Shown here: positions 1,453-37,861 of the stretch, in pieces
Layout: every line of letters begins with the position of its first letter
How positions within the stretch are numbered: position 1 is the first letter of the stretch
Notes under the pieces: generated by a model
Seen by the model: the letters and a program-made list of their open reading frames with translations, nothing else
Told to the model about the DNA's origin: nothing
The model's database searches: none
Assembly: GCF_054482595.1 (NCBI RefSeq)
Contig: NZ_CM137008.1
Direction: 5' to 3' (one strand)
DNA length: 64,000 nt
Program-made: the position numbers and the translations under genes

Positions 1453-2348
1453 AGATCCACCCCGTAAATCCAGTCTGTGTTTGTCAGGTCGAGTTTTGGT
1501 TTACTGGCTGTCACGACTGCCTGTTGCTTGTTACGGTTGATTTCGAGCTGGGTCCACTTGTCGCGGAGTTTGGCCGGACTCAGCACGTTACCGGACCAGA
1601 AGTTGTCCTGGCAGGCCCAGCGGAAAAGCACACACATATCGCGGTGGTTACGTCCGTCACGTTCACGCATCAGGCGGATATCGTTAGCCCACCCAGCAAA
1701 ATTCGGTTTTCTGGCTGATGGCGCGATGGTCTTCACCATGTCAAACATCCACTCTGCGGCGGTCAGGTCTTCTGCTGTTCCCCACTTGCTGCCGCTCTGA
1801 ATTGCAGCATCCGGTTTAACCACAGAAAGATCGTTTTCTGGCTGGTCAGAGGATTTGCCAGAATTCTCGGACGAATAATCTTTTCTTTTTTCTTTTGTAA
1901 TAGTGTCTTTTGTGTCCCCCTGTTTTGAGGGATAGCAATCCCCCAATTTGAGGGATGTTTTATCCCTCGTTTTAGGGGATTTTCCCTCGTTTTGAGGGAT
2001 ACACCATTCTGAGATGTTTTTATTTGGTCCAAACATGCCGCCTTGCTGCTTGATAATATTCATTCTGACGAGTTCTAACTTGGCTTCATTGCACCGTTTG
2101 ACAGGTAACTTTGTAATCTCGCTAAGTTGAGAATCGGTGATTCTGTCCATTGGTTTATTCCACCCATAGGTTTTACGCAGAATGGCAAGCAGCACTTTAA
2201 ACTGTCGCTTGGTCAGATCTGCGCCCGAATAAGCCTCAAGCAGCATATTTGATAGTCTGGCGTAACCATCATCGAGATCTGCCACATTACGCTCCTGTCC
2301 GGCAAAGTTACCTCTGCCGAAGTTGAGTATTTTTGCTGTATTTGTCAT
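1449..2348 (-). CDS. O: Replication initiator O, 299 aa
   Basis: Translation MTNTAKILNFGRGNFAGQERNV... near-identical to lambda O as recalled; contains ori iterons. Confidence 0.95.
   Translation of the reverse strand: MTNTAKILNFGRGNFAGQERNVADLDDGYARLSNMLLEAYSGADLTKRQFKVLLAILRKTYGWNKPMDRITDSQLSEITKLPVKRCNEAKLELVRMNIIKQQGGMFGPNKNISEWCIPQNEGKSPKTRDKTSLKLGDCYPSKQGDTKDTITKEKRKDYSSENSGKSSDQPENDLSVVKPDAAIQSGSKWGTAEDLTAAEWMFDMVKTIAPSARKPNFAGWANDIRLMRERDGRNHRDMCVLFRWACQDNFWSGNVLSPAKLRDKWTQLEINRNKQQAVVTASKPKLDLTNTDWIYGVDL
1870..2001. repeat. ori-lambda: four tandem iterons plus adjacent AT-rich region inside O
   Basis: Four ~19-bp repeats (TCCCTC-N-GAGGGA cores) at ~1912-2001, with an A/T-rich tract at 1870-1910. 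Confidence 0.85.
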
Positions 2349-2359
2349 AATGACTCCTG

Positions 2360-2434
2360 TGGATTGATCCAGTAATTCCCTCAGAATTGCATATCAATTT
2401 GCTTAGAGTCCCCGGCGGCCACCGGGGATTTTTT
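2360..2434 (+). ncRNA. oop: oop-like antisense RNA with its terminator (to), overlapping cII 3' end
   Basis: Plus-strand hairpin CCCCGG-CGGCCA-CCGGGG then T6 at 2410-2434, opposite to cII/O; position and sequence pattern resemble lambda oop as recalled; 5' end approximate. Confidence 0.6.
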
Positions 2435-2677
2435 CTTTGTGATTCCATCAAGCGCATACTTAAAAGCCCTGCTAATTGGACTGATGTCTGATGCCATTCC
2501 GAAAGCACACAAGACCGAAGCAATAAACCGCCAGTCCGTTCTGCTTATCTTCGATTCATGACAGCCAATCATCTTTGCCAGACCGCGCTGGGTAATAGTT
2601 GACAGATTGATAAGTAAATCTGTTTCTGCGCGATCAACGTCACGCTGTGATAGTTTGCTGTAACTTGTTCTTTCCAT
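2381..2677 (-). CDS. cII: CII-like transcriptional activator (98 aa)
   Basis: C-terminus ...KKKSPVAAGDSKQIDMQF resembles lambda CII ...KKRPAATERSEQIQMEF; HTH-like centre; lambda-order position between cro and O. Confidence 0.85.
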   Translation of the reverse strand: MERTSYSKLSQRDVDRAETDLLINLSTITQRGLAKMIGCHESKISRTDWRFIASVLCAFGMASDISPISRAFKYALDGITKKKSPVAAGDSKQIDMQF

Positions 2678-2762
2678 TTCTTAAGATTTCCAATAGTGAA
2701 TAGTTAGTTGAAAGGTATGCGTGGAAACGCATATGGCCTTAGTTGGTCAGATATCTTGGGAC

Positions 2763-2809
2763 TCGCTTTTCAGCGACGTAGGACGAATGTCCGTTGTTAC
2801 AAAGAGCGG
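2763..2809 (-). promoter_or_regulatory. nutR-like site (boxA CGCTCTTTGTAACAAC, boxB UCGCU-GAAA-AGCGA) on pR transcript
   Basis: Minus-strand boxA-like element followed by 5-bp stem/GAAA loop hairpin; near-identical architecture to the nutL candidate at 5263-5309. Confidence 0.5.
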
Positions 2810-2815
2810 GGTTAC

Positions 2816-3043
2816 TTATGCTGCCAGAAGGTTCTTTTTGCTTATTTCAAGCAATTCGCTTGCTTGATATTTGCCACCAGAAATCTCTTCGATTTTTGAG
2901 GCGTATTTCGTTTTCCCAAAAAACTCAGTCTTAGGGAGGAAGCCGTTTTTGAGCCACTTATAGACAGCCCTTTCGCTAACTCCACAAGCCTTCGCAACTT
3001 CAGGGATGCCGACACCTTTAATCGGCTCATCAAGATTTTGCAT
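2816..3043 (-). CDS. cro: Cro-like HTH repressor (75 aa)
   Basis: Small ORF divergent from cI with HTH motif (VAKACGVSERAVYKWLKNG); not lambda Cro sequence. Confidence 0.8.
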   Translation of the reverse strand: MQNLDEPIKGVGIPEVAKACGVSERAVYKWLKNGFLPKTEFFGKTKYASKIEEISGGKYQASELLEISKKNLLAA

Positions 3044-3122
3044 AGGAATATCCCTTTTTCGTACTTTTAGTACGCATTATGGTTGAACTGAAAGTTTTTG
3101 CAAGTGCTTTAGTATCGTACTC
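3044..3122. promoter_or_regulatory. oR-type operator/promoter region (divergent pR/pRM) between cro and cI
   Basis: 79-bp divergent intergenic region with palindromes GTACTTTTAGTAC (3061-3073) and AGTATCGTACT (3110-3120) and motif TTATGGTT also present near the pL region. Confidence 0.6.
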
Positions 3123-3830
3123 ATGGTTCAGAATGAAAAAGTGCGCAAAGAATTCGCCCAGCGGCTAGCGCAAGCCTGTAAAGAAGCTGGTCTTGATGAA
3201 CATGGTAGGGGTATGGCCATAGCCCGTGCCCTTTCTCTTTCGTCCAAAGGCGTTAGCAAATGGTTTAATGCTGAGTCTTTACCGCGTCAGGAAAAAATGA
3301 ATGCGCTTGCGAAATTTCTAAACGTTGATGTTGTTTGGCTTCAGCACGGCACTTCGTTAAATGGAGCGAATGATGAAGATACTCTTTCATTTGTTGGCAA
3401 ATTAAAAAAAGGGTTAGTGCGCGTGGTTGGTGAGGCAATTCTTGGTGTTGATGGTGCCATCGAGATGACCGAAGAGCGCGATGGGTGGCTCAAGATTTAT
3501 AGTGATGATCCAGATGCCTTTGGTCTTCGTGTGAAAGGAGACAGCATGTGGCCCAGAATAAAATCAGGAGAATATGTACTCATTGAGCCTAACACCAAAG
3601 TATTCCCGGGGGATGAGGTGTTTGTCAGAACCGTTGAAGGACACAACATGATCAAGATTCTTGGCTATGACAGAGATGGAGAATACCAATTTACAAGCAT
3701 CAACCAGGACCACAGGCCAATAACGTTACCTTATCATCAAGTAGCAAAGGTGGAGTATGTGGCTGGTATTCTGAAGCAATCTCGTCATCTGGATGACATC
3801 GAGGCAAGGGAGTGGCTGAAAAGTTTGTGA
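3123..3830 (+). CDS. cI: CI-type prophage repressor (N-terminal HTH + C-terminal S24 LexA-like autopeptidase), 235 aa
   Basis: HTH at N-terminus; GDSM serine motif and downstream lysine (MIKILG) typical of S24 family; heterologous to lambda cI. Confidence 0.9.
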   Translation: MVQNEKVRKEFAQRLAQACKEAGLDEHGRGMAIARALSLSSKGVSKWFNAESLPRQEKMNALAKFLNVDVVWLQHGTSLNGANDEDTLSFVGKLKKGLVRVVGEAILGVDGAIEMTEERDGWLKIYSDDPDAFGLRVKGDSMWPRIKSGEYVLIEPNTKVFPGDEVFVRTVEGHNMIKILGYDRDGEYQFTSINQDHRPITLPYHQVAKVEYVAGILKQSRHLDDIEAREWLKSL

Positions 3831-3953
3831 CTTCAAGTACGCGACAAGCCCCGTCCTTCAGGGCGTGGAGGATGTCAAAATAACTTTAAATAACACACCA
3901 CCAACATTTAACACATTGAATTAAAAAACCTACAATATTTGATGAGAGGCGTT

Positions 3954-4274
3954 ATGGAACCGGTCAAAATTAAACCATCTGTGGATTATATTGAAACCTA
4001 TGCGGACTTCGCTAGTTTTGCTCCACTACCGGGAGCGGAAAAAAATCTCATTTGTATACATTTTATCGCAAACAAGTCAATACCTGCGGTACTATCCCAA
4101 AATGATATACCAGATCAACCAGGTAGAGCGAATATGCAGATAGGCTCTGTAAATGAACTCAATCAGCAATGCACTGTGATAATGCCAATGGCACAACTAA
4201 AGGCTCTTCAGGAGAATATAGTTCTTCTTTTCGAACAATTAGAGGCACAAAACTCTAATGGAGCGAAGTCGTAA
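3954..4274 (+). CDS. Hypothetical protein ORF-A (~106 aa), first gene of cassette in rexA position
   Basis: ORF with GAGG Shine-Dalgarno 5 nt before ATG 3954 (alternative starts 3939/3942); stop overlaps ORF-B start (TAATG); no family recognised. Confidence 0.6.
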   Translation: MEPVKIKPSVDYIETYADFASFAPLPGAEKNLICIHFIANKSIPAVLSQNDIPDQPGRANMQIGSVNELNQQCTVIMPMAQLKALQENIVLLFEQLEAQNSNGAKS

Positions 4275-4957
4275 TGCAACAACCGGAAGAAGTAGGTGAT
4301 TTAACTATTACTTACAAAACATCAAGTATTGTTAAACCACTGCAAGTTTCCCTGAATAACGTTAATACTCGCGATTTCATGATGTTCATGGAAACAGCAA
4401 AAGGTAATCTGTTTTCTACGCCTATTTCCTCTTATTCACCAAAAAACATGGTGGATGATGCGACCAATTCCCAGCTAACTGCTACAATCGTAGATAAAGG
4501 AGGGGTTGCCGATTGTAAAGGACAATCTAATGTTATCCCACCGTACGAGGAAACTCCTATACAGGGAACCGCAATGTCCGATTTGAGCAGAAACGAAATA
4601 CAGGCACTTCTGAAGGCAAATAAAGCTGAAGTGGATGCAGTGGCCTCAAAAATGCAGGCTGATATGGCCAAATGGCGTGAACTAATGGCTTCAGATATAA
4701 AGGAGATGAAGCATTTAGTTGTTACTCAGCACGAACAAATCAACAGTCGTCTGGACATACAATCGAGTAGAATTGAGAGTGCCCTTGACTCCCAATCAAA
4801 AAAGATCGATGCAGCTCTTTCTGTTCAAGAGGCAAAGTTAGAAGGTAAGCTTAGTGATGTTAAGCTTGATATAATCAAATGGGCCCTTGGCTTGCCAGCA
4901 TTAGCATTTGCTGTATATAAAATCTACGGATTGCTCTCTGGAGTCTCAACCCCCTAA
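4274..4957 (+). CDS. Hypothetical tail-anchored membrane protein ORF-B (227 aa), in rexB position
   Basis: Translationally coupled to ORF-A; heptad-like/charged segment ~100-200; single C-terminal hydrophobic helix IIKWALGLPALAFAVYKIYGLL; no family recognised. Confidence 0.65.
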   Translation: MQQPEEVGDLTITYKTSSIVKPLQVSLNNVNTRDFMMFMETAKGNLFSTPISSYSPKNMVDDATNSQLTATIVDKGGVADCKGQSNVIPPYEETPIQGTAMSDLSRNEIQALLKANKAEVDAVASKMQADMAKWRELMASDIKEMKHLVVTQHEQINSRLDIQSSRIESALDSQSKKIDAALSVQEAKLEGKLSDVKLDIIKWALGLPALAFAVYKIYGLLSGVSTP

Positions 4958-4963
4958 TACACA

Positions 4964-4989
4964 CCCGGCCTCAGTGCCGGGTTTTCTTT
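4964..4989 (+). terminator. Rho-independent terminator closing the cI/ORF-A/ORF-B unit (lambda timm position)
   Basis: CCCGGC-CTCAGT-GCCGGG hairpin followed by TTTTCTTT. Confidence 0.65.
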
Positions 4990-4999
4990 GCCCAACGTT

Positions 5000-5262
5000 C
5001 GCCCACCTAAAAACACATAATCGATTGTATTTATTGAAAAACTGATAGATACAACTTGCTAAACAGTGCAACCCTGATCCCTGCCCCATCACCTTCATCC
5101 TCAACATTTACAAAAATAAAATACCTTATATATCAAAACCATATCTCGAGAAAACGAATGAACAACAAAATTTCGTACTTATGGTTCTTGATTGTATCGA
5201 ACCAATAGTTCATTATTATCACCATCAGCAGGACGCTGGAAGCCAAACGGAACAGACTGGCA
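5000..5262 (+). promoter_or_regulatory. pL/oL region (inferred), driving N and the leftward early operon
   Basis: Located between terminator and nutL; candidate -35/-10 TTGATT-17-CATTAT at ~5178-5206; inverted repeats GAACCAATAGTTC and TTATGGTTC. Confidence 0.4.
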
Positions 5263-5309
5263 GGCTCTTTAAACAACGTCGAACTCTCGACTACGTGGCT
5301 GAAAAGCCA
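5263..5309 (+). promoter_or_regulatory. nutL-like site (boxA GGCTCTTTAAACAAC, boxB UGGCU-GAAA-AGCCA)
   Basis: boxA-like GCTCTTT and 5-bp stem/GAAA loop hairpin ~100 nt upstream of N; same boxA/spacer(CTACGT)/boxB layout as the nutR candidate. Confidence 0.5.
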
Positions 5310-5407
5310 GATCACCCAACCACATAAGCTGTGGGATGCAATGCCGAAGCAACCGTCTCAGGAGGAGCTTCGAGATTGCATCGCCAAAGTTTATTCGGGA
5401 GGAATCT

Positions 5408-5680
5408 ATGTCCAGAAAAACAAAATTTAAAGGCACCGCAGCTTCTCGCCGTAGAGCCCGTCGCGCAAATCTGCAAAGTCAGGAGGCGATCAGCTCCGAC
5501 AAGCTACACAGACCAACCCCTTCACGAGTGGTCTTGCAATGCAAGCGCAAACCAGCAATGAGAGCAGAAGTTATAACTCTGACAACGTTGACCAGAAAAT
5601 ATGAAGGTTCAACTTGTCTTCCGAACGTAGCTCTTTACGCGGCAGGCTACCGGAAATCAAAACAACTGACGGCGAGATGA
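5408..5680 (+). CDS. N: N-type antiterminator (90 aa), P22 gp24-like
   Basis: Arg-rich N-terminal motif (GTAASRRRARRANL) and C-terminus ...CLPNVALYAAGYRKSKQLTAR resembling recalled P22 gp24 ...LLPGVALYAAGHRKSKQITAR; ORF-track start 5336 judged too far upstream. Confidence 0.8.
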   Translation: MSRKTKFKGTAASRRRARRANLQSQEAISSDKLHRPTPSRVVLQCKRKPAMRAEVITLTTLTRKYEGSTCLPNVALYAAGYRKSKQLTAR

Positions 5681-5696
5681 TAAATTAATTTGCTAA

Positions 5697-6278
5697 TTAC
5701 TTGTTTTTGCCATGCTTATCCTGAGCGATAAGTTCATCCATAAGACTGTCTTTCTTCCCAGCAAACCTAATGTAGCACTCATTTCTATAGCGTTCCGGGA
5801 TAACAAAACGGTCGATTTCAGGATATCCAGTAGCAGAAGGTACCCGAATAAGAAGCCCTTTTTCGAGCAATGAGATTGCTTCAGGGCTTCCCTTTTCTGT
5901 CTTTAGCTGGTTATTAGCGGCTACAGCGAATGCCAAATACGCTCTTTCTCCAAGAGTTAACGAATCAAACAAATCTTGCACGTATTTCTCTTCTTTAGAT
6001 TTGCGCTTCTGAGCAGCGAATATCTCAATTCTTTCAGTCACAGCGTGATAAGCGGAATTAACAACGCCGTTAAGCACATAGCTAACGCAAAACAACAGGA
6101 TGTAATACATCCAGTAATGAGGAAGGATTTCTGGATTATGCAGGTTTATCCATTCTTTTACGCTTACAGGCATAACAATAATCAATATGATCAGGATGAT
6201 TAGCATATGAATCAACTGTTTAAGTGTCATTCCTTGCAGGAAAAAATGCATTAGTTCCTGCCACCATGAGTTGTTCAT
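5697..6278 (-). CDS. sieB: Superinfection exclusion protein B (193 aa), membrane protein
   Basis: Translation MNNSWWQELMHFFLQGMTLKQLIHMLIILIILIIVMPV... matches lambda SieB as recalled. Confidence 0.9.
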   Translation of the reverse strand: MNNSWWQELMHFFLQGMTLKQLIHMLIILIILIIVMPVSVKEWINLHNPEILPHYWMYYILLFCVSYVLNGVVNSAYHAVTERIEIFAAQKRKSKEEKYVQDLFDSLTLGERAYLAFAVAANNQLKTEKGSPEAISLLEKGLLIRVPSATGYPEIDRFVIPERYRNECYIRFAGKKDSLMDELIAQDKHGKNK

Positions 6279-6538
6279 CGGCGTTTCTCTTTTGCTCTCT
6301 GTAGGGGTGAATAGAGTTTATCCGATTTCTCGCTGTAGGGGTACACGAGAACCACCGAGCCTGATGTGGTTAAAAGACAGGCATACTAATAAACACTGCA
6401 CTGTGTATTCATTCCAACGAGTGAATACACTGAGCAATGTCGCTCGTAACTAAACAGGAGCCGACTTGTTCTGATTATTGGAAATCTTCTTTGCCCTCCA
6501 ATGTGAGGGCGATTTTTTATCTGTGAGGATATGAATAG

Positions 6539-6907
6539 ATGTCAAACATCAAAAAATACATCATTGATTACGACTGGAAAGCATCAATAGAAATTGAAAT
6601 CGACCATGACGTAATGACAGAGGAAAAACTTCACCAGATTAATAATTTCTGGTCAGACTCTGAATACCGACTCAATAAACACGGCTCTGTATTAAATGCT
6701 GTATTAATCATGCTGGCGCAACATGCTCTGCTTATAGCAATTTCAAGCGACTTAAATGCATATGGTGTTGTGTGTGAGTTCGACTGGAATGATGGAAATG
6801 GTCAGGAAGGATGGCCTCCAATGGATGGTAGCGAAGGAATAAGAATTACCGATATCGATACATCAGGAATATTTGATTCAGATGATATGACTATCAAAGC
6901 CGCCTGA
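6539..6907 (+). CDS. ea10: Ea10-like protein (122 aa)
   Basis: Size and position between sieB and cIII as in lambda; sequence identity recalled only approximately. Confidence 0.75.
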   Translation: MSNIKKYIIDYDWKASIEIEIDHDVMTEEKLHQINNFWSDSEYRLNKHGSVLNAVLIMLAQHALLIAISSDLNAYGVVCEFDWNDGNGQEGWPPMDGSEGIRITDIDTSGIFDSDDMTIKAA

Positions 6908-6979
6908 GCGCGGCGTTACCGCATACCAATAACGCTTCACTCGAGGCGTTTTTCGTTATGTATAAATAAGGAGCACACC

Positions 6980-7144
6980 ATGCAATATGCCATTGCAGGG
7001 TGGCCTGTTGCTGGCTGCCCTTCCGAATCTTTACTTGAACGAATCACCCGTAAATTACGTGACGGATGGAAACGCCTTATCGACATACTTAATCAGCCAG
7101 GAGTCCCAAAAAATGGATCAAACACTTATGGCTATCCAGACTAA
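6980..7144 (+). CDS. cIII: CIII (FtsH inhibitor, 54 aa)
   Basis: Translation [54 protein letters not shown] matches lambda CIII; below ORF-track size cutoff. Confidence 0.9.
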   Translation: MQYAIAGWPVAGCPSESLLERITRKLRDGWKRLIDILNQPGVPKNGSNTYGYPD

Positions 7145-7256
7145 ATTCACTATCGCCACTTTTATTGGCGATGAAAAGATGTTTCGTGAGGCCGTCGACG
7201 CTTATAAAAAATGGATATTAATACTGAAACTGAGATCAAGCAAAAGCATTCACTAA
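7113..7256 (+). CDS. kil: Kil (FtsZ-targeting host killing peptide, 47 aa)
   Basis: [47 protein letters not shown] matches lambda Kil; overlaps cIII and gam. Confidence 0.85.
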
Positions 7257-7627
7257 CCCCCTTTCCTGTTTTCCTAATCAGCCCGGCATTTCGCGGGCGA
7301 TATTTTCACAGCTATTTCAGGAGTTCAGCCATGAACGCTTATTACATTCAGGATCGTCTTGAGGCTCAGAGCTGGACGCGTCACTACCAGCAGATCGCCC
7401 GTGAAGAGAAAGAGGCAGAACTGGCAGACGACATGGAAAAAGGTCTGCCCCAGCACCTGTTTGAATCACTCTGCATCGATCATTTACAACGCCACGGGGC
7501 CAGCAAAAAAGCCATTACCCGTGCGTTTGATGACGATGTTGAGTTTCAGGAGCGCATGGCAGAACACATCCGGTACATGGTTGAAACCATTGCTCACCAC
7601 CAGGTTGATATTGATTCAGAGGTATAA
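7211..7627 (+). CDS. gam: Gam (RecBCD inhibitor), 138 aa long form
   Basis: Translation near-identical to lambda Gam as recalled. Confidence 0.95.
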
Positions 7628-7632
7628 AACGG

Positions 7633-8418
7633 ATGAGTACAGCACTCGCAACGCTGGCTGGGAAGCTGGCTGAACGCGTCGGCATGGATTCTGTCGACCC
7701 ACAGGAACTGATCACCACTCTTCGCCAGACGGCATTTAAAGGTGATGCCAGCGATGCGCAGTTCATCGCATTGCTGATCGTCGCCAACCAGTACGGCCTT
7801 AATCCGTGGACGAAAGAAATTTACGCCTTCCCTGACAAGCAGAACGGCATCGTTCCGGTGGTGGGCGTTGATGGCTGGTCCCGTATCATCAATGAAAACC
7901 AGCAGTTTGATGGCATGGACTTTGAGCAGGACAATGAATCCTGCACATGCCGGATTTACCGCAAGGACCGCAATCATCCGATCTGCGTTACCGAGTGGAT
8001 GGATGAATGCCGCCGCGAACCATTCAAAACCCGCGAAGGCAGAGAAATCACGGGGCCGTGGCAGTCGCATCCCAAACGGATGTTACGGCATAAAGCCATG
8101 ATTCAGTGTGCCCGTCTCGCCTTCGGATTTGCTGGTATCTATGACAAGGATGAAGCCGAGCGCATTGTCGAAAATACCGCATACACTGCAGAACGTCAGC
8201 CGGAACGCGACATCACTCCGGTTAACGATGAAACCATGCAGGAGATTAACACTCTGCTGATTGCCCTGGATAAAACATGGGATGACGACTTATTGCCGCT
8301 CTGTTCCCAGATATTTCGCCGCGACATTCGAGCATCGTCAGAACTGACACAGGCCGAAGCAGTGAAAGCTCTTGGATTCCTGAAACAGAAAGCCACTGAG
8401 CAGAAGGTGGCAGCATGA
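7633..8418 (+). CDS. bet: Bet (Red beta single-strand annealing protein), 261 aa
   Basis: Translation matches lambda Bet as recalled. Confidence 0.95.
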
Positions 8419-9095
8419 CACCGGACATTATCCTGCAGCGTACCGGGATCGACGTGAGAGCTGTCGAACAGGGGGATGATGCGTGGCACAAATTACGGCT
8501 CGGCGTCATCACCGCTTCAGAGGTTCACAATGTGATAGCAAAACCCCGCTCCGGAAAGAAATGGCCTGACATGAAAATGTCCTACTTCCACACCCTGCTT
8601 GCCGAGGTTTGCACCGGTGTGGCTCCGGAAGTTAACGCTAAGGCGCTGGCCTGGGGAAAACAGTACGAGAACGACGCCAGAGCCCTCTTTGAGTTCACTT
8701 CCGGCGTGAATGTTACTGAATCCCCGATCATCTATCGCGACGAAAGTATGCGCACCGCCTGCTCTCCCGATGGTTTATGCAGTGACGGCAACGGCCTTGA
8801 ACTGAAATGCCCGTTTACCTCCCGGGATTTCATGAAGTTCCGGCTCGGTGGTTTCGAGGCCATAAAGTCGGCTTACATGGCCCAGGTGCAGTACAGCATG
8901 TGGGTGACGCGAAAAGATGCCTGGTACTTTGCCAACTATGACCCGCGCATGAAGCGTGAAGGCCTGCATTATGTCGTGATTGAGCGGAATGAAAAGTACA
9001 TGGCGAGTTTTGACGAGATGGTGCCGGAGTTCATCGAAAAAATGGACGAGGCACTGGCTGAAATTGGTTTTGTATTTGGGGAGCAATGGCGATGA
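8415..9095 (+). CDS. exo: Exo (Red alpha 5'-3' exonuclease), 226 aa
   Basis: Translation matches lambda Exo as recalled. Confidence 0.95.
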
Positions 9096-9274
9096 CGCAT
9101 CCTCACGATAATATCCGGGTAGGCGCAATCACTTTCGTCTACTCCGTTACAAAGCGAGGCTGGGTATTTCCCGGCCTTTCTGTTATCAGAAATCCACTGA
9201 AAGCACAGCGGCTGGCTGAGGAGATAAATAATAAACGGGGAGCTGTATGCACAAAGCATCTCCCGTTGAGTTAA
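9086..9274 (+). CDS. lambda orf60a-like small protein (62 aa)
   Basis: Matches recalled lambda orf60a; overlaps exo 3' end. Confidence 0.7.
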
Positions 9275-9438
9275 GAACGAGTATCGAGATGGCACATAGC
9301 CTCGCTCAAATTGGAGTCAGGTTTGTGCCAATACCAGTAGAAACAGACGAAGAATTTCATACGTTAGCCGCATCCCTTTCACAAAAGCTGGAAATGATGG
9401 TGGCGAAAGCAGAAGCAGATGAGAGAGACCAGGTATGA
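9247..9438 (+). CDS. lambda orf63-like small protein (63 aa)
   Basis: Matches recalled lambda orf63. Confidence 0.7.
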   Translation: MHKASPVELRTSIEMAHSLAQIGVRFVPIPVETDEEFHTLAASLSQKLEMMVAKAEADERDQV

Positions 9439-9518
9439 CAACCACGGAATGCATTTTTCTGGCAGCGGGCTTCATATTCTGTGTGCTTATGCTTGCCGAC
9501 ATGGGACTTGTTCAATGA
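9435..9518 (+). CDS. Small hydrophobic peptide (27 aa, MTTTECIFLAAGFIFCVLMLADMGLVQ), ATGA-coupled on both sides
   Basis: Read from sequence: ATG overlaps orf63 stop (ATGA), stop overlaps next gene start (ATGA); single predicted TM helix; below ORF-track cutoff. Confidence 0.4.
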   Translation: MTTTECIFLAAGFIFCVLMLADMGLVQ

Positions 9519-9730
9519 CACCTCAGCAGGAAAACGCCCTTCGCAGTATTGCCCGTCAGGCTAATTCTGAAATCAAAAAAGCCAGACAGCAGTTTCCGGA
9601 TAAAAACGTCGATGACATTTGCCGTAGCGTACTGAAGAAGCACCGCGAAACGGTAACGCTGATGGGATTCACACCGACTCATTTAAGCCTGGCGATCGGC
9701 ATGTTAAACGGCGTCTTTAAGGAACGGTGA
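9515..9730 (+). CDS. lambda orf61-like small protein (71 aa from this start)
   Basis: In-frame ATG at 9515 within ORF 9419-9730; sequence MTPQQENALRSIARQ...; start choice uncertain. Confidence 0.6.
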   Translation: MTPQQENALRSIARQANSEIKKARQQFPDKNVDDICRSVLKKHRETVTLMGFTPTHLSLAIGMLNGVFKER

Positions 9731-9752
9731 GCATGAAAAACAAAATCATCAT

Positions 9753-9776
9753 GGAGCTACAGGCTCCTTTTTTATT
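9753..9776 (+). terminator. Weak intrinsic terminator-like hairpin inside the leftward operon
   Basis: GGAGC-TACAG-GCTCC followed by TTTTTT; only a 5-bp stem. Confidence 0.35.
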
Positions 9777-9828
9777 ATTCGCATTCACCCTCAAGCGTAT
9801 TAACCAACAATTCAGGGATTAATGAAAG

Positions 9829-10050
9829 ATGGCAGACATCATTGATTCAGCATCAGAAATTGAAGAATTACAGCGCAATACAGCAATAAAAATGCGTCGT
9901 CTGAACTACCAGACTATATCCGCCACTCATTGTTGTGAGTGTGGCGATCCCATAGATGAACGAAGACGCCTGGTCGTTCAGGGTTGTCGGACTTGTGCAA
10001 GTTGCCAGGAGGATCTGGAGCTTATCAGTAAACAGAGAGGTTCGAAGTGA
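9829..10050 (+). CDS. TraR/DksA-family C4 zinc-finger protein (73 aa)
   Basis: CxxC...CxxC motif (CCECGDPIDERRRLVVQGCRTCASCQ) typical of TraR/DksA-type phage proteins. Confidence 0.7.
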   Translation: MADIIDSASEIEELQRNTAIKMRRLNYQTISATHCCECGDPIDERRRLVVQGCRTCASCQEDLELISKQRGSK

Positions 10051-10454
10051 GCGAAATTAACTCTCAGGCACTGCGTGAAGCGGCAGAGAAAGCCGGTGAA
10101 GATAAGTGGCAGGCTAAAAAAATAAATGGTGATTTTTTCGTTATTCGTCACGGTAGTTATACAAGACAGCATGGCTACACATCGTATCAACCCATTGCGG
10201 AGATTGATTGTAAGCCAGTCCGGGATTTTGTTGCCAAGGCTAATCCGGCTACCGTGCTGGAATTACTGGATGAACTGGAAGCAGCAAAAAAGCGCATTGC
10301 AGAACTGGAAGCGCGGGAAATACTGCTCCCGGAACGTAGCAGCATGCTTCATCGAACAGATTTTCACGATGATTACCAAACGGTAATGGCATACAAAGTT
10401 TCTGAAGTCATCGATGCAATCCGCGCTACTGGCATTCGCATCAAAGGAGAGTGA
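10047..10454 (+). CDS. Ead/Ea22-like protein (135 aa), shortened/mosaic
   Basis: N-terminus MSEINSQALREAAE and C-terminus ...ATGIRIKGE as in lambda Ea22 family; coiled-coil motif LELLDELEAAKKRIAELEARE. Confidence 0.7.
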   Translation: MSEINSQALREAAEKAGEDKWQAKKINGDFFVIRHGSYTRQHGYTSYQPIAEIDCKPVRDFVAKANPATVLELLDELEAAKKRIAELEAREILLPERSSMLHRTDFHDDYQTVMAYKVSEVIDAIRATGIRIKGE

Positions 10455-10455
10455 G

Positions 10456-11211
10456 ATGATTCACTACCACGGTGGGCCTATTACTCCTGATACGTGCGCA
10501 ATGAGGGCATGGAAAGGGCGACATGCGTTTATCAGTTTTGCGCATTCAGGCCAGATCAATCTCGCGGCTGAATACTGTCAGTCGTTCGCGCTGGACAACG
10601 GTGCATTCACCGCCTGGAAAGCAGCTGGCAAAAACAAAATCGACTGGAGCGATTACTACGAGTTTGTTGCTCGCTGGAAGAATCACCCAGGATTCGATTT
10701 TGCCATTATCCCGGATATTATTGATGGCGGAGAGGAGGAAAATGATGCGCTTCTGAATGAGTGGCCTCACGGAAAACTAGCTGGCGTTCCAGTGTGGCAC
10801 ATGAATGAAAGTGACGCGCGATTTATTCATTTGTGCAATGAGTTTCCGCGAGTGGCTATCGGTAGTTGTGGCGACTATGACGTAAAGCGCCCAACTCTTG
10901 CGGTAGCCAGAATGAAAGACCTGATTCGTCACATTGTTGATGGGCATGGTCAGCCGGTTACGAAACTACATGGATTGCGCATGTTAAATCCGCTGATATT
11001 CACAAAATTACCCTTAGCCAGCGCAGATAGTACGAACGTCGCTCGAAACATCGGTATTGATAAAGCCTGGTCTAGGGCTTATGCACCTGCAAGTAAAGAG
11101 ACACGCGCAGCATTAATGGTAGAACGGATTGAGGCACACAATAGCCCTGGTTCTCTTGCGTATTGTGAACAACGCGACCGCTTTGAAATGCAATTGCAAC
11201 TAGCAGTTTAA
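10456..11211 (+). CDS. TGT-fold protein, candidate DpdA-like 7-deazaguanine DNA transglycosylase (251 aa)
   Basis: Strong SD AGGAG before ATG 10456; ordered motifs LDNGAF, FAIIPD, VAIGSCG, HGLRM, ADSTNVARN resembling tRNA-guanine transglycosylase motifs DSGGYQ, MAFDE, AVGG, HYLMGVG, FDCVLPTRSGRN; no zinc-binding subdomain; assignment by eye. Confidence 0.55.
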   Translation: MIHYHGGPITPDTCAMRAWKGRHAFISFAHSGQINLAAEYCQSFALDNGAFTAWKAAGKNKIDWSDYYEFVARWKNHPGFDFAIIPDIIDGGEEENDALLNEWPHGKLAGVPVWHMNESDARFIHLCNEFPRVAIGSCGDYDVKRPTLAVARMKDLIRHIVDGHGQPVTKLHGLRMLNPLIFTKLPLASADSTNVARNIGIDKAWSRAYAPASKETRAALMVERIEAHNSPGSLAYCEQRDRFEMQLQLAV

Positions 11212-11221
11212 GGACTAACAA

Positions 11222-12019
11222 ATGACCACTATTACCAAAGAACGTATTGAATTGTTCATTAAAAATCCGCTTGAAAACGGACTTACTCGTGGCGAACAAA
11301 TGGAACTGGCACGAATTGCACTGGCATCACTGGAACGCGAACTGATTCGCCACGAGCATGCCAAATGGTCTGACTCCACATTTGGCTGCGTTGGCCCCAT
11401 TGGTCCACTGAAACACCTCTCAAAAGAGGCTCTGGAAGCCGCAGCCGAACCAGACGATCTCAGCGAGTGGGCTGATATGCATTTCCTGTTGTGGGATGCA
11501 CAGCGCCGTGCTGGCATCAGCGATGCTGAAATTACCGCTGCTATGGAAGATAAATTGAAGATCAACATGGAGCGCCAGTGGCCTGAACCAATAGATGGTG
11601 AGCCTCGCTTGCACATTAAAGAACCCGGCAACTCTCCGGTAATTCCGGATGGTTTATCCACGGTATGCGCTGAGGCTTATCAGGTTGTAGGAGTTATGGC
11701 AGATGCGCTTGGTGTATTCGGTGATGCAGCAGTACAGAAAGTTCTGGATAACCTGTCACAGCAAAAACTTGTTCACAGAGATGTGCTGCCGTTCTCGCTT
11801 CCGGTGACTCCGGATGGTTGGATAAGCTGTAGTGAGCGAATGCCGAAAGAAACGGGTGACATTATTGTTGTTTCGGATGGCATTGTAATGTCCGGGATTT
11901 CTTATTCTCGTCGTGACGGGTTCTATATAGCCGCATTGGAGTACGACGACGATGAGCCAATTGGCGGTGTAACCCACTGGATGCCTCTACCAGAACCGCC
12001 TCGATTAAAGGAGCTATAA
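11222..12019 (+). CDS. Phage protein with N-terminal dATP/dGTP pyrophosphohydrolase-like (DUF550-like) region and C-terminal DUF551-like region (265 aa)
   Basis: C-terminal motif PDGWISCSERMPKE...THWMPLPEPP typical of DUF551; N-terminal acidic region (EWADMHFLLWDAQRR) resembles MazG-like nucleotide pyrophosphohydrolases; recalled, not searched. Confidence 0.6.
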   Translation: MTTITKERIELFIKNPLENGLTRGEQMELARIALASLERELIRHEHAKWSDSTFGCVGPIGPLKHLSKEALEAAAEPDDLSEWADMHFLLWDAQRRAGISDAEITAAMEDKLKINMERQWPEPIDGEPRLHIKEPGNSPVIPDGLSTVCAEAYQVVGVMADALGVFGDAAVQKVLDNLSQQKLVHRDVLPFSLPVTPDGWISCSERMPKETGDIIVVSDGIVMSGISYSRRDGFYIAALEYDDDEPIGGVTHWMPLPEPPRLKEL

Positions 12020-12710: not shown

Positions 12711-12929
12711 ATGTACTTGACACTTCAGGAGTGGAACGCACGCCAGCGACGCCCAAGAAGCCTTGAAACAGTTCGTCGATGGGTACGCGAGTGCAGGATA
12801 TTCCCTCCTCCGGTTAAGGATGGAAGAGAGTATCTGTTCCACGAATCAGCGGTAAAGGTTGACTTAAATCGACCAGTAACAGGTAGCCTTTTGAAGAGGA
12901 TCAGAAATGGGAAGAAGGCGAAGTCATGA
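12711..12929 (+). CDS. xis: Excisionase Xis (72 aa)
   Basis: Translation MYLTLQEWNARQRRPRSLETVRRWVRECRIFPPPVKDGREYLFHESAVKVDLNRPVTGSLLKRIRNGKKAKS matches lambda Xis. Confidence 0.95.
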   Translation: MYLTLQEWNARQRRPRSLETVRRWVRECRIFPPPVKDGREYLFHESAVKVDLNRPVTGSLLKRIRNGKKAKS

Positions 12930-13980
12930 GCGCCGGGATTTACCCCCTAACCTTTATATAAGAAACAATGGATATTACTGCTACAGGGACCCAAGGACGG
13001 GTAAAGAGTTTGGATTAGGCCGAGACAGGAGGATAGCAATCACTGAAGCAATACAGGCCAATATTGAGTTACTCTCAGACAGCGGACGCAAATCACTGAT
13101 AGACAGAATTAAAGGCGGTGACGCAATCACTCTTCATGTGTGGCTTGACCGATATGAAACAATCCTCACCGAAAGGGGGATCAGGCCGAAAACTCTACTC
13201 GACTACGCCAGCAAAATCAGGGCAATCCGAAGAAAATTGCCGGACAAACCGCTCACTGACATATCAACGAAAGAAGTGGCAGCAATGCTAAACACCTACG
13301 TAGCAGAAGGTAAAGCAGCTTCCGCAAAATTAATCAGGTCAACCCTTGTTGACGTTTTTCGTGAAGCAATAGCCGAGGGGCATGTGGCAACGAATCCGGT
13401 AACAGCAACCCGTACAGCAAAGTCAGAAGTAAGGCGCTCAAGGCTGACAGCTAATGAGTATGTCGAGATTTACCATGCAGCCGAACCTCTCCCTATCTGG
13501 CTAAGGCTGGCGATGGATTTGGCCGTCGTTACAGGGCAGAGAGTCGGCGATTTGTGCAGAATGAAATGGTCAGACATAAACGACAACCATCTTCACATTA
13601 AACAGAGTAAAACAGGGGCTAAACTCGCCATTCCGCTAACGCTAACGATTGACGCGCTCAATATCTCATTGGCTGATACACTACAGAAATGCAGGGAGGC
13701 CAGCAGCAGTGAAACTATAATCGCATCAAAGCATCACGATCCGCTTTCCCCGAAAACAGTATCAAAGTATTTTACAAAGGCGAGAAATGCATCTGGCCTC
13801 TCATTTGATGGAAACCCGCCAACATTCCATGAACTGCGTAGCCTGTCAGCGAGGCTATACCGGAACCAGATTGGCGATAAGTTTGCTCAACGTCTTCTCG
13901 GGCATAAATCAGATTCAATGGCGGCGCGGTATAGGGACAGCCGTGGACGGGAATGGGACAAAATTGAAATCGACAAATGA
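12907..13980 (+). CDS. int: Tyrosine integrase Int (357 aa), lambda-family
   Basis: N-terminus MGRRRSHERRDLPPNLYIRNNGYYCYRDPRTGKEFGLGRDRRIAITEAIQANIEL and C-terminal RSLSARLY...HLLGHKSD...REWDKIEI as in lambda Int; central domain divergent. Confidence 0.95.
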   Translation: MGRRRSHERRDLPPNLYIRNNGYYCYRDPRTGKEFGLGRDRRIAITEAIQANIELLSDSGRKSLIDRIKGGDAITLHVWLDRYETILTERGIRPKTLLDYASKIRAIRRKLPDKPLTDISTKEVAAMLNTYVAEGKAASAKLIRSTLVDVFREAIAEGHVATNPVTATRTAKSEVRRSRLTANEYVEIYHAAEPLPIWLRLAMDLAVVTGQRVGDLCRMKWSDINDNHLHIKQSKTGAKLAIPLTLTIDALNISLADTLQKCREASSSETIIASKHHDPLSPKTVSKYFTKARNASGLSFDGNPPTFHELRSLSARLYRNQIGDKFAQRLLGHKSDSMAARYRDSRGREWDKIEIDK

Positions 13981-14074
13981 TTTTATTTTGACTAATAATG
14001 ACCTACTTACATTAATTTACTGATAATTAAAGAGATTTTAAATATACAACTTATTCACCTTAAGTGCACCGACC
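13981..14074. other. attL-type prophage/host junction region (P' arm with arm-type Int sites; core not resolved)
   Basis: TTTTGACTAATAATGACC resembles lambda P' arm-type sites as recalled; lies between int stop and host torS start. Confidence 0.4.
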
Positions 14075-18406: not shown

Positions 18407-18579
18407 GGTCAGTGCGTATTTGCAGCGCGACGTTATCAAAGGTGATCATCGTCGATTTACAAAAAATACACTTAGCGCCCAAAGGGTTTCGCTCCGTCAC
18501 ATCGAATGCCGATGTGCGGTACTGTGAACCATGACAACATGGACAGCGGAAATGGAGATGTTGAGTAATAACGGCAACC

Positions 18580-18792
18580 TTAGAGCGTAACAACGTTCGC
18601 TGCCGCGGGGCCACGTTGCCCCTGCTCAATAGAAAATTCAACTTTCTGATTTTCGTTCAGCGTGCGGAATTCATTGCTCTGGATGGCGGTGAAATGGACG
18701 AAAACGTCTTTGCTGCCATCATCAGGAGTGATAAAGCCAAAACCTTTATCTGCGTTAAACCATTTTACTAAACCAGTCATTTTATTAGACAT
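18580..18792 (-). CDS. cspG: Cold shock protein CspG (70 aa)
   Basis: CSD protein [23 protein letters not shown]...; conserved neighbourhood. Confidence 0.9.
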
Positions 18793-19077
18793 ATTTTACT
18801 TCCTTCATTTTGGGCCTTTCGGCAAACAGGGCTTTAATACAGAAACTACTTAGTGTTCAGGAGAGAGACTCAAAAGAAGGGGATAATGCCTGATAATGAG
18901 AACTGCTTTAGTAAACTACTTTGTATGCTGTCTGTCTTTCCAACCGACGCAGCTATTAACGCATGATAATTGAGATTAAGCAAATTTTATTTTAGCCGTC
19001 CGGCGGTCTTAAATATCGCTGGCTTTATTTTATTAACCCCGTATAGTGCAGCGCAGTATTTTCAGTAAGGAATTTGT

Positions 19078-33717: not shown

Positions 33718-34421
33718 GAACGCTCCTTGTTACTTATTTTGCCAAATTTGTGGCTACGGTAGCCGTTGACCATGGTGGAGATCACCGTGTCGTCGGACAT
33801 GATGTCTTCACGCAGCGCCATATAGACATGACCGATCACAAACGCGCCAATCAGCCACATCCCCAGCCGATGCCAGCTGTGAATGTCCATTGAGTTGCCT
33901 CCCGTCCAGTAGAAAAATTCCACCACATAACGGAACGGCGCAAAAATAGCGTACTGGCTGTGTTCGCTGTACAGCGCAAAGCCGGTGATGATCATAAAGA
34001 CCGACATCAGGAAATAGCCGAACATCGCCGCCTGGGCGATGGGGTTATGGCCTATATCGGCACTCGGACGTTTTGCCAGAAACAGATACCAGCGGATTTC
34101 ATACCACACGCCCTGCCACCAGCTTTTACGCCATACCGGCACGATAAACAGCTCGCGGGAGTATCGATTGCCAACAAAAGCCCAGTAGATCCGCATCAGC
34201 AAGACCACGGTAAAAACCATCCCGGCGCTGAAGTGAATTAACCTGATGTAGCCCATATAGAACAGATACGTCGCCTCGCCGCTGACGGAAGGTAGCGGCT
34301 TGCCGATAAAGTATCCGGTGACCATCAATACCGCCATGCATAACACCGTCAGCCAGTGCCAGATGCGGACTGGCGCTTCAAAGACATAGTGGCTGACAAC
34401 GTTGTCGCTTTTCTGTTGCAT
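33714..34421 (-). CDS. hyaC: Hydrogenase-1 cytochrome b subunit HyaC (235 aa)
   Basis: Four TM helices; operon order. Confidence 0.9.
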
Positions 34422-37773: not shown

Positions 37774-37861
37774 GGAAGTGTGGCCGAGCGGTTGAAGGCA
37801 CCGGTCTTGAAAACCGGCGACCCGAAAGGGTTCCAGAGTTCGAATCTCTGCGCTTCCGCCA
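37774..37861 (+). tRNA. serT: tRNA-Ser (anticodon UGA), 88 nt with CCA end
   Basis: GGAAGTGTGGCCGAGCGGTTGAAGGCACCGGTCTTGAAAACCGG...CGCTTCCGCCA; long variable arm; matches E. coli serT. Confidence 0.95.

What the first reader, a model, noticed from the sequence alone, without database searches (positions are those of the whole stretch)
5408..5680. N antiterminator is P22 gp24-like rather than lambda-like inside a lambda gene backbone
The 90-aa product has an Arg-rich N-terminal motif and a C-terminus (...VALYAAGYRKSKQLTAR) matching what I recall of P22 gp24, while flanking sieB and cIII-kil-gam are lambda-like. The implied recombination junctions lie between N and sieB, and between the rex-slot terminator and pL.
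Basis: partly seen in the sequence, partly recalled or inferred. Interest (0 to 1): 0.3.

Follow-up and report, generated by a model that had tools for sequence, protein, structure and literature searches.

The report
Common Stx-phage-type N antiterminator gene
The 90-residue gene is a real and very common N transcription antiterminator of the type first seen in Shiga-toxin phage VT2-Sakai; it belongs to the P22 gp24 family rather than lambda's, and it sits in an ordinary mosaic prophage with its own matched RNA target sites.

Summary
The ORF at 5408-5680 (+) is real. It matches Pfam PF25694 (N_peptide, the P22 gp24 family) at E 8e-32; lambda N falls below that family's cut-off.

It is not a P22 gp24 orthologue. 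It is 89/90 identical to the N of phage VT2-Sakai, 41% identical to HK97/933W N and 41% to gp24. High identity to gp24 is confined to the last 24 residues (19/24). Its specificity-determining core (5273-5613) occurs in 766 of 5426 complete E. coli genomes, and RefSeq already names the protein.

The "lambda backbone" is only partly true:
- Lambda-like DNA (about 98%) ends at 2442 and resumes at 6388.
- The immunity region is 933W-type.
- sieB is P22-type (85% aa identity, against 24% to lambda SieB), contiguous with the 3' end of N.

Module joints lie at the pL start (5214-5225), at boxA (5272/5273), inside the 3' end of N (5614-5617), at the N stop, and at 6383/6388.

nutL and nutR follow the 933W/HK97 two-hairpin plan, but their boxB has a 4-nt GAAA loop instead of GACAA. 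N type, nutL and nutR stay matched across different immunity types.

The parts
5408..5680 (+). N antiterminator gene (90 aa plus stop), VT2-Sakai type
   Evidence: ORF; PF25694 E 7.9e-32; 89/90 identical to VT2-Sakai N; same CDS annotated in RefSeq
5432..5479 (+). Codons 9-24: arginine-rich motif (GTAASRRRARRANLQS), the predicted boxB-binding helix
   Evidence: Region identities: HK97 11/24, P22 9/24, lambda 8/24. The RNA-binding role is inferred from lambda and P22 N (PMC8632103, PMC12027372)
5606..5677 (+). Codons 67-90: conserved C-terminal motif GSTCLPNVALYAAGYRKSKQLTAR, the predicted RNA-polymerase-binding end. It is also a conserved DNA stretch that serves as a recombination joint (5614-5617)
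   Evidence: 21/24 identical to HK97, 22/24 to Lambda_2E9, 19/24 to P22, 3/24 to lambda. DNA identity over 5615-5680: 91-94% to HK97/933W, 87% to P22, about 98-99% to Lambda_2E9. H-19B N L108 in this motif (L71 here) gives a suppressor of RNAP beta' mutants (PMC4499122)
5263..5276 (+). nutL boxA (GGCTCTTTAAACAA)
   Evidence: Pattern scan and alignment with P22, Lambda_2E9 and VT2-Sakai nutL. Homology with Lambda_2E9 ends at 5272
5278..5291 (+). nutL spacer hairpin (GTCGA-ACTC-TCGAC)
   Evidence: Fold -5.7 kcal/mol. Across 80 loci the stem is kept while the loop varies (CTC, ACAC, ACTC). H-19B nutR has two hairpins (PMC3526286)
5296..5309 (+). nutL boxB: stem TGGCT/AGCCA with a 4-nt GAAA loop
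   Evidence: Fold -7.1 kcal/mol, z -3.6. Inverted-repeat pair with nutR (I1). The stem pair G-C in nutL is C-G in nutR
2763..2808 (-). nutR: boxA CGCTCTTTGTAACAAC (2808-2793), spacer hairpin GGACATTCGTCC (2792-2781), boxB TCGCT-GAAA-AGCGA (2776-2763)
   Evidence: Identical to nutR of VT2-Sakai and ev207. Differs from 933W/HK97 nutR only next to boxA and by one loop base
5174..5216 (+). OL operators (5174-5188, about 5198-5212) and pL (-35 TTGATT 5188-5193, -10 CATTAT 5211-5216), 933W type
   Evidence: 5174-5188 matches a 933W operator with 2 mismatches; layout aligns with 933W and Lambda_2E9. The promoter assignment is inferred from sequence
5224..5236 (+). Conserved start of the pL transcript (ATCAGCAGGACGC); left joint of the N module
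   Evidence: Invariant in all 7 phages aligned. 67 of 80 related loci begin homology at 5214-5225
5328..5390 (+). Long leader hairpin just upstream of the N ribosome-binding site; it buries the alternative ATG at 5336
   Evidence: -28.9 kcal/mol, z -4.0. The whole leader 5224-5425 folds at -68.7 kcal/mol, z -4.9. The analogy to lambda's RNase III site in the N leader is from my own knowledge
5697..6278 (-). sieB, P22 type, convergent with N
   Evidence: PF14163 E 1.1e-25; 85% identical to P22 SieB, 24% to lambda SieB
5617..6383 (.). P22-like DNA segment (87%) running from the 3' end of N through sieB and its upstream region
   Evidence: blastn against P22 12171-11403. About 98-99% identical to VT1-Sakai and Lambda_2E9 from 5614
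6491..6512 (+). Terminator-like hairpin plus T-run upstream of ea10: the likely first terminator that N must override on the left
   Evidence: Lies in a block 96% identical to HK97, where a putative terminator is annotated
4963..4982 (+). Terminator after the rex-slot genes; start of a short lambda-like island (4963-5082, 82.5%)

Best explanation
This is the N early-gene antiterminator of a lambdoid prophage, of the allele first sequenced in Stx2 phage VT2-Sakai. Transcription from a 933W-type pL starts near 5224 and produces nutL RNA, consisting of boxA, a spacer hairpin and boxB. N is translated from 5408. Its arginine-rich N-terminus binds the boxB hairpins of nutL and nutR. Its centre (LHRPTPSR...KRKP) probably holds NusA, while boxA recruits NusB/S10. 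Its conserved C-terminal 24 residues bind RNA polymerase, making it read through terminators: leftward past 6491-6512 into ea10-cIII-kil-gam-bet-exo-xis-int, and rightward from nutR into cII-O-P-nin-Q. The protein is a three-part mosaic. Its Arg-rich motif and centre are nearest to HK97/933W N and lambda N, and its C-terminus is of the P22/H-19B class. It comes with its own nut specificity: a 933W-style two-hairpin nut site whose boxB loop is GAAA rather than GACAA. The gene lies in a small exchangeable module (5214/5224-5680) whose core (5273-5613) is bracketed by two conserved stretches, boxA and the 3' end of N, where recombination swaps N types. Shown here: homology, module boundaries, RNA hairpins, and co-variation of N, nutL and nutR. 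Inferred: all binding and antitermination steps.
For: Identity: PF25694 E 7.9e-32; 89/90 identical to VT2-Sakai N, and 261 phage records carry relatives; RefSeq name. Position: first gene after pL and nutL, as in lambda, P22 and 933W. nut sites: boxA plus two hairpins in both early transcripts, with a compensatory G-C/C-G change in the boxB stem between nutL and nutR. Matching: in loci found through this N, nutL has the GAAA boxB in 79/79 and nutR has it in 75/76. In 120 loci found through a GACAA nutR, 94 encode HK97-type N and none this N. nutL type equals nutR type in 170/170 loci, spread over 6 cro-OR-cI types, 4 of which contain both nut types. Lambda_2E9 has the same 933W-type immunity and the same sieB-to-exo DNA, but a true P22-type N with P22-type nutL and nutR. 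Module joints. C-terminal function: the H-19B N C-terminal domain binds RNAP, and L108F in the motif CLPNVALY suppresses RNAP beta' exit-channel mutants (PMC4499122, PMC3526286). N mosaics joined before the last 25-35 residues are already described for P22 and phage L gp24 (PMC8022706).
Against: No experiment on this allele was found in the searchable literature. The NusA-binding assignment rests on 13/42 identity to lambda N. One locus (L047) pairs this N and a GAAA nutL with a lambda-type nutR, so strict matching is not absolute. The sampled loci are related and were collected through N or through the nutR pattern, so the counts are not independent events. Only the left arm of the prophage is in the window, so whether it is intact is unknown.
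Confidence: 0.85

Rival explanations
1. It is a straightforward P22 gp24 orthologue with P22 nut specificity, dropped into a lambda genome.
For: Same Pfam family as gp24. C-terminus 19/24 identical. The pL leader 5222-5252 is 97% identical to P22, and 5617-6383 is 87% identical.
Against: Only 41/101 identical overall; the Arg-rich motif is 9/24 and the centre 4/42. boxB is TGGCT-GAAA-AGCCA, not P22's GCGCT-GACAA-AGCGC, and the spacer differs. A genuine P22-type N with P22-type nut sites exists in the same backbone (Lambda_2E9), and it differs from the window exactly over 5273-5613 and at nutR.
Confidence: 0.07
2. It is a decayed, internally deleted remnant of the 127-aa HK97/933W/H-19B N in a defective prophage, and no longer functions.
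For: It aligns with HK97 N at both ends and lacks about 37 central residues. The nut architecture is the HK97/933W one minus a single loop base.
Against: The same 90-aa allele, at 97% identity or more, is present in sequenced phage genomes (VT2-Sakai, 2851, PA21, ev207, PhiR57_1, 2B8), in at least 430 viral contigs and in 766 of 5426 E. coli genomes. Both of its nut sites carry the same matched variant. This is conservation, not decay.
Confidence: 0.04
3. The N/nutL/nutR association reflects only shared descent, and the GAAA versus GACAA loop has no role in specificity; this N and 933W N would then be interchangeable.
For: The two nutR variants differ at only about 5 positions in 160 nt. The loci are related and not independently sampled. 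L047 shows that a mismatched nutR can exist.
Against: nutR and N lie about 2.5 kb apart across the most mosaic part of the genome. Four immunity types each occur with both nut types, yet nutL and nutR never disagree in 170 loci. The Arg-rich motifs differ strongly (11/24).
Confidence: 0.25

Closest known systems
N of Stx2 phage VT2-Sakai (Sp5), AP000363, BAA84304; also phages 2851, PA21, Stx2 II, ev207
   Same: 89/90 residues. Same nutL apart from one base in the spacer-hairpin loop. Identical nutR.
   Different: VT2-Sakai annotates a longer 114-aa ORF from an upstream ATG. It has a different immunity region and replication genes, and no sieB after N.
N of H-19B / 933W / HK97 (127 aa)
   Same: Same N-terminal signature (M-S/T-R-K/R-T-x-FKG...SRRR), the same EAISS..LHRPT.SR block, and a C-terminus 21/24 identical. 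Same nut plan: boxA, spacer hairpin, CUACG, boxB. The window also has 933W-type cI, cro and operators.
   Different: About 37 residues shorter and 41% identical. The boxB loop is GAAA, not GACAA. nutL has a canonical boxA, which 933W/HK97 nutL lacks.
P22 gp24 (Pfam PF25694 archetype)
   Same: Same Pfam family. C-terminal 24 aa 19/24 identical. P22-like pL leader and P22-like sieB next door.
   Different: Different Arg-rich motif (9/24) and unrelated centre (4/42). Different boxB stem and loop, and no spacer hairpin in the P22 nut sites.
Lambda N (Pfam PF11438; structures of the N antitermination complex)
   Same: Same job and gene position. The Arg-rich core A-x-(S/T)-RRR-x-RRA-x-x-Q-x-Q is similar (8/24), and there is an RP...RKP stretch in the centre (13/42).
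   Different: Lambda N is below the cut-off of PF25694. Its C-terminus is unrelated (3/24). Its boxB has a 5-nt loop on a GCCCU stem. No Trp18 equivalent here.
Phage L versus P22 gp24 mosaic (PMC8022706)
   Same: N genes recombine at a joint before the last 25-35 codons, with specificity carried by the N-terminal part. Here the joint is at 5614-5617.
   Different: In L and P22 the N-terminal part is shared and the C-terminus swapped. Here the C-terminus is shared and the N-terminal part swapped.

Membership tests
Lambdoid N antiterminators of the P22 gp24 family (Pfam PF25694 N_peptide) | Profile match above the curated cut-off over the full length | tested here: met
   110.2 bits against a cut-off of 27.9, residues 1-90 on profile positions 5-100. 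P22 gp24 scores 152 bits and HK97 N 58 bits
Lambdoid N antiterminators of the P22 gp24 family (Pfam PF25694 N_peptide) | N-terminal arginine-rich motif | tested here: met
   SRRRARR at residues 13-19
Lambdoid N antiterminators of the P22 gp24 family (Pfam PF25694 N_peptide) | First gene of the pL operon, preceded by nutL, with a second nut site after cro | tested here: met
   pL 5188-5216, nutL 5263-5309, N 5408; nutR 2808-2763 between cro and cII
Lambdoid N antiterminators of the P22 gp24 family (Pfam PF25694 N_peptide) | Conserved C-terminal RNAP-binding motif (LPxVAxYAAGxRKSKQxTAR) | tested here: met
   19/24 identical to P22, 21/24 to HK97. The function of the motif is taken from H-19B N (PMC4499122)
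Lambdoid N antiterminators of the P22 gp24 family (Pfam PF25694 N_peptide) | Nus-factor-dependent terminator readthrough | not testable with these tools
   Needs a reporter or in vitro transcription assay
P22 gp24 specificity group (same target as P22 and phage L) | P22-type boxB (GCGCUGACAAAGCGC in nutL) and a P22-type Arg-rich motif | tested here: not met
   boxB is UGGCU-GAAA-AGCCA and UCGCU-GAAA-AGCGA; motif identity 9/24
Lambda N (Pfam PF11438 N36) | Match to the N36 profile and a lambda-type C-terminus | tested here: not met
   Only PF25694 was reported at E up to 10. C-terminus 3/24 identical. Pairwise match limited to the N-terminal part, E 5e-5
H-19B/933W/HK97 N-nut system | Two-hairpin nut site (spacer hairpin, CUACG, boxB) | tested here: met
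   Two hairpins in H-19B nutR are reported in PMC3526286
H-19B/933W/HK97 N-nut system | boxB loop GACAA and the 127-aa N | tested here: not met
   The loop is GAAA in both nut sites. N is 90 aa and 41% identical. No GACAA-nutR locus encodes this N (0 of 94)
VT2-Sakai-type N allele | Near-identical protein together with the same nutL and nutR | tested here: met
   89/90 identical. nutR is identical, and nutL differs by one base in the spacer-hairpin loop

The most novel reading that the evidence does not exclude
This N/nut pair may be a natural system in which boxB carries a true 4-nt GNRA tetraloop (GAAA). Lambda and P22 instead have 5-nt loops that only mimic that fold by flipping one base out. 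Its insulation from the co-circulating 933W/HK97 pair may depend largely on that single loop nucleotide together with the changed arginine-rich motif.
Probability: 0.3. Interest if true: 0.4.

Novelty: already known. Interest (0 to 1): 0.15.

Why it matters
It matters little as a discovery. The allele was sequenced in VT2-Sakai, is named by RefSeq, and is present in about one in seven complete E. coli genomes. Mosaic exchange of N, immunity and sieB modules is textbook lambdoid biology.

The useful outcomes are a corrected map and one small lead:
- The backbone is lambda plus 933W immunity plus P22-type sieB.
- The swapped unit is a roughly 340-bp specificity-determining core (5273-5613) bounded by boxA and the conserved 3' end of N.
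- The lead is a GAAA-loop boxB that always travels with this N. It could give a compact natural orthogonal peptide-RNA pair and a test of what the flipped-out loop base does in other N systems.

Tried and rejected
- A PDB sequence search with the 90-aa protein found nothing at E up to 10, so no structural inference was attempted. N proteins are intrinsically disordered, so no structure was predicted.
- The search for related loci with the 5-sequence N alignment failed for lack of a conserved stretch. The single protein was used instead.
- Neely & Friedman 2000 (H-19B alternative NUT structures) and Cocozaki et al. 2008 (P22 boxB requirements) are not held. What I say about them is from titles or memory.
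- Literature searches for VT2-Sakai N or nut sites, or for a GAAA-tetraloop boxB, returned nothing relevant.
- A first k-mer clustering of whole immunity regions over-merged because of shared segments. It was replaced by clustering the 650 nt covering cro, OR and the 5' end of cI.
- The longer 114-aa ORF from ATG 5336, as annotated in VT2-Sakai, was rejected. That ATG lies inside the strong leader hairpin and has no Shine-Dalgarno sequence. The HK97/933W N-terminus aligns to the start at 5408, and PGAP chooses 5408.
- Rfam has no nut-site family; only Lambda_thermo, cspA and a tRNA were found.

Full report
**1. The observation**

The + strand ORF 5408-5680 encodes 90 aa: MSRKTKFKGTAASRRRARRANLQSQEAISSDKLHRPTPSRVVLQCKRKPAMRAEVITLTTLTRKYEGSTCLPNVALYAAGYRKSKQLTAR. 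A GGAGG lies 5 nt upstream of the ATG.

A longer in-frame ORF starts at 5336. That ATG is buried in a strong hairpin at 5328-5390 (-28.9 kcal/mol, z -4.0). RefSeq annotates exactly the 273-nt CDS in an identical E. coli prophage as 'transcriptional antitermination N peptide', WP_000088207.1.

The protein matches Pfam PF25694 N_peptide over its full length (110.2 bits, cut-off 27.9, E 7.9e-32). It also matches phrog_271 'anti-termination protein N-like' (E 1e-24). So the gene, the Arg-rich motif and the quoted C-terminus are real and not chance.

**2. What the window is**

The window is an E. coli chromosome carrying a lambdoid prophage, inverted relative to the lambda map. Several complete genomes are 100% identical over 2300-6400. 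The modules are listed below.

| Window region | Best match | Evidence |
|---|---|---|
| 1-2442 (ninB-ren-P-O-end of cII) | lambda 41033-38592, 97.6% | |
| 1839-3835 (cII, cro, cI) | 933W, 95.4%; oR1-oR3 recovered at 3060-3130; a 933W-like operator and promoter at 5174-5216 | |
| 4963-5082 | lambda-like island just after the rex-slot terminator, 82.5% | |
| 5617-6383 (last 64 nt of N, all of sieB, its upstream region) | P22, 87% | |
| 6299-6383 | second short lambda-like island, 94% | |
| 6388-10088 (ea10-cIII-kil-gam-bet-exo...) | lambda 34055-30354, 97.9% | |

- Between 2443 and 6298 there is no lambda DNA apart from the island at 4963-5082.
- SieB is 85% identical to P22 SieB (E 4e-115) and 24% identical to lambda SieB.
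- ral is missing at the 6383/6388 joint.

**3. What the N protein is related to**

tblastn against 50,697 phage records found 261 with a relative. Those at 97.8-98.9% identity include VT2-Sakai, 2851, Stx2 II, PA21, PA50, ev207-like phages, PhiR57_1 and 2B8.

| Comparison | Result |
|---|---|
| VT2-Sakai N | 89/90 identical |
| HK97/933W N (127 aa) | 52 identities, E 8e-24 |
| P22 gp24 | 41/101, E 3e-13 |
| lambda N | 22/63, N-terminal part only, E 5e-5 |

Identity by region:

| Region | HK97 | P22 | lambda | Lambda_2E9 |
|---|---|---|---|---|
| Arg-rich motif (residues 1-24) | 11/24 | 9/24 | 8/24 | 9/24 |
| Centre (25-66) | 14/42 | 4/42 | 13/42 (includes an RP...RKP stretch) | 3/42 |
| C-terminus (67-90) | 21/24 | 19/24 | 3/24 | 22/24 |

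Pfam places gp24 (152 bits), this N (110 bits) and HK97 N (58 bits) in PF25694. Lambda N (16 bits) is below the cut-off and belongs to PF11438.

So 'P22 gp24 family, not lambda' is correct at family level. But the protein is the VT2-Sakai allele, with HK97/933W N as its nearest distinct relative. Its strong resemblance to gp24 is confined to the C-terminal motif.

That motif is the RNA-polymerase-binding end in H-19B N. L108F, in CLPNVALY (L71 here), suppresses RNAP beta' exit-channel mutants (PMC4499122). Deletions of the C-terminal domain have been characterised (PMC3526286). A review notes that this C-terminus diverges from lambda N (PMC8632103), and my PDB sequence search found no related structure.

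**4. The nut sites**

An inverted-repeat search linked 5291-5310 (+) with 2762-2781. Read in the direction of each early transcript:
- nutL: GGCTCTTTAAACAAC-GTCGAACTCTCGAC-TACG-TGGCT GAAA AGCCA
- nutR: CGCTCTTTGTAACAAC-GGACATTCGTCC-TACG-TCGCT GAAA AGCGA

Each site has boxA, a spacer hairpin and a boxB hairpin.
- The boxB hairpins fold at -7.1 and -6.5 kcal/mol (z -3.6 and -2.9).
- Their second stem pair is G-C in nutL and C-G in nutR, a compensatory change.
- The spacer hairpin keeps its stem while its loop varies among 80 related loci.

The two-hairpin plan with the CUACG linker matches 933W/HK97, and H-19B nutR is reported to have two hairpins (PMC3526286). However, 933W/HK97 and P22 have a 5-nt GACAA loop and lambda has GAAAA/GAAGA. 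Here the loop is 4 nt, GAAA, closed by the same U-A pair.

Over 160 nt around nutR, the window, VT2-Sakai and ev207 differ from 933W and HK97 essentially only beside boxA and by that one loop base.

The minimum-energy fold of the whole nutL pairs boxA with the 3' arm of boxB. This recalls the title of Neely & Friedman 2000, which I could not read.

**5. N, nutL and nutR travel together**

- Loci found through this N: of 80 IMG/VR loci with N at least 97% identical, nutL has the GAAA boxB in 79/79 where present, and nutR has it in 75/76. The exception is L047, which has lambda immunity and lambda nutR.
- Loci found through a GACAA nutR: of 120 loci, 94 encode HK97-type N, 26 have no N in the DNA held, and none encodes this N.
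- Loci with both nut sites recognisable: in 170, the nutL type equals the nutR type every time. The 170 fall into 6 cro-OR-cI types, 4 of which contain both nut types.
- A direct example is Lambda_2E9. It shares the window's 933W-type immunity (94%) and everything from 5614 through exo (97.9%), but it has a true P22-type N (MTVIVYGKSTFAGNAKTRRHERRRKL...) with P22-type nutL and P22-type nutR.

These counts are not independent events, because the loci are related and were selected through N or through nutR. Even so, repeated reassortment of immunity without ever breaking the match argues for functional coupling.

**6. Module boundaries**

- Left end of the homology block containing N, across the 80 loci: 5214 in 44 loci and 5221-5225 in 23. 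This is the pL -10 hexamer and the invariant transcript start ATCAGCAGGACGC.
- Right end: 5676-5680 (the stop codon) in 66 loci and 6383 in 12.
- Against Lambda_2E9 the replaced core is 5273-5613. It runs from just after boxA to the conserved last 22 codons.
- P22, HK97, 933W and VT1-Sakai homology all start at 5614-5617.

So boxA and the 3' end of N are conserved stretches that bracket a roughly 340-bp specificity-determining core. That core holds the spacer hairpin, boxB, the leader hairpin and the N-terminal three-quarters of N. A joint before the last 25-35 codons of gene 24 is already described for P22 and phage L (PMC8022706).

- The N stop is a common breakpoint in the population. In this window, however, the P22-like DNA runs straight through it.
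- The lambda-like island does end between the rex-slot terminator and pL (5082). The N module itself starts at the pL transcription start.

**7. Mechanism**

This is inferred from lambda, P22 and H-19B (PMC8632103, PMC3526286, PMC4499122).
- pL fires and nutL RNA forms.
- N binds boxB through its Arg-rich helix.
- boxA recruits NusB/S10, and the centre of N holds NusA.
- The C-terminal motif engages RNA polymerase near the RNA exit channel.
- The modified polymerase reads through the terminator-like site at 6491-6512 into ea10-cIII-kil-gam-bet-exo-xis-int. From nutR it reads into cII-O-P-nin-Q.
- The leader hairpin at 5328-5390, just before the ribosome-binding site, is positioned like lambda's RNase III-sensitive structure that controls N translation (my own knowledge, not tested).

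**8. Novelty and score**

The allele is common. Its core (5273-5613) is in 766 of 5426 complete E. coli genomes and at least 430 viral contigs. It is named in RefSeq and was sequenced in VT2-Sakai. The mosaic pattern is the expected one for lambdoid phages.

The only mildly new point is the 4-nt GAAA boxB that tracks this N type. I found no description of it, but I could not read the older primary papers.

Interest 0.15; novelty: already known.

Noticed in passing
L047 (IMGVR_UViG_2531839234_000006), nutR at about 1103, N at 3877: This is the only mismatched locus. It combines this N and a GAAA nutL with lambda cI, cro and a lambda-type nutR (GCCCTGAAAAAGGGC). Either this N tolerates lambda boxB or the prophage is crippled on the right arm.
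   Followed up: partly
window 10414-11211 (+) and 11222-12019 (+): A 265-aa protein matches phrog_887 'queuine tRNA-ribosyltransferase' (E 7.6e-102) but has no Pfam hit. It sits next to a dATP/dGTP pyrophosphohydrolase plus DUF551 protein. This may be a DNA base-modification pair in the prophage's accessory region.
   Followed up: partly
window 3939-4274 (+) and 4274-4957 (+): Two genes of unknown function occupy the rex slot between cI and pL, a usual place for prophage exclusion genes. One is 111 aa with no family. The other is 227 aa, phrog_14825 (unknown function), with a weak coiled-coil match and a hydrophobic C-terminal tail. Neither has a significant PADLOC hit.
   Followed up: partly
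window 6383/6388: About 340 bp of lambda (34056-34395, the ral gene) is absent between the sieB upstream region and ea10. ev207 keeps an antirestriction gene at this position.
   Followed up: no
window 5258-5316 (+) and 2758-2816 (-): The minimum-energy fold pairs boxA (G/CGCUCUUU) with the 3' arm of boxB (AAAAGCC/G). The first boxA base is G in nutL and C in nutR, and it covaries with that arm. This suggests an alternative structure competing with boxB.
   Followed up: partly
window 5328-5390 (+): A strong hairpin (-28.9 kcal/mol, z -4.0) lies immediately upstream of the N ribosome-binding site. It may be a counterpart of lambda's RNase III site in the N leader.
   Followed up: partly
window 6967-7025 (+); 18526-18948 (-); 37774-37861 (+): Rfam finds the lambda cIII thermoregulator, a cspA thermoregulator and a tRNA-Ser(tga). 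The prophage integrase (12907-13980, 79% DNA identity to lambda int-xis) marks the prophage end near 14000. The rest of the window is chromosome.
   Followed up: no
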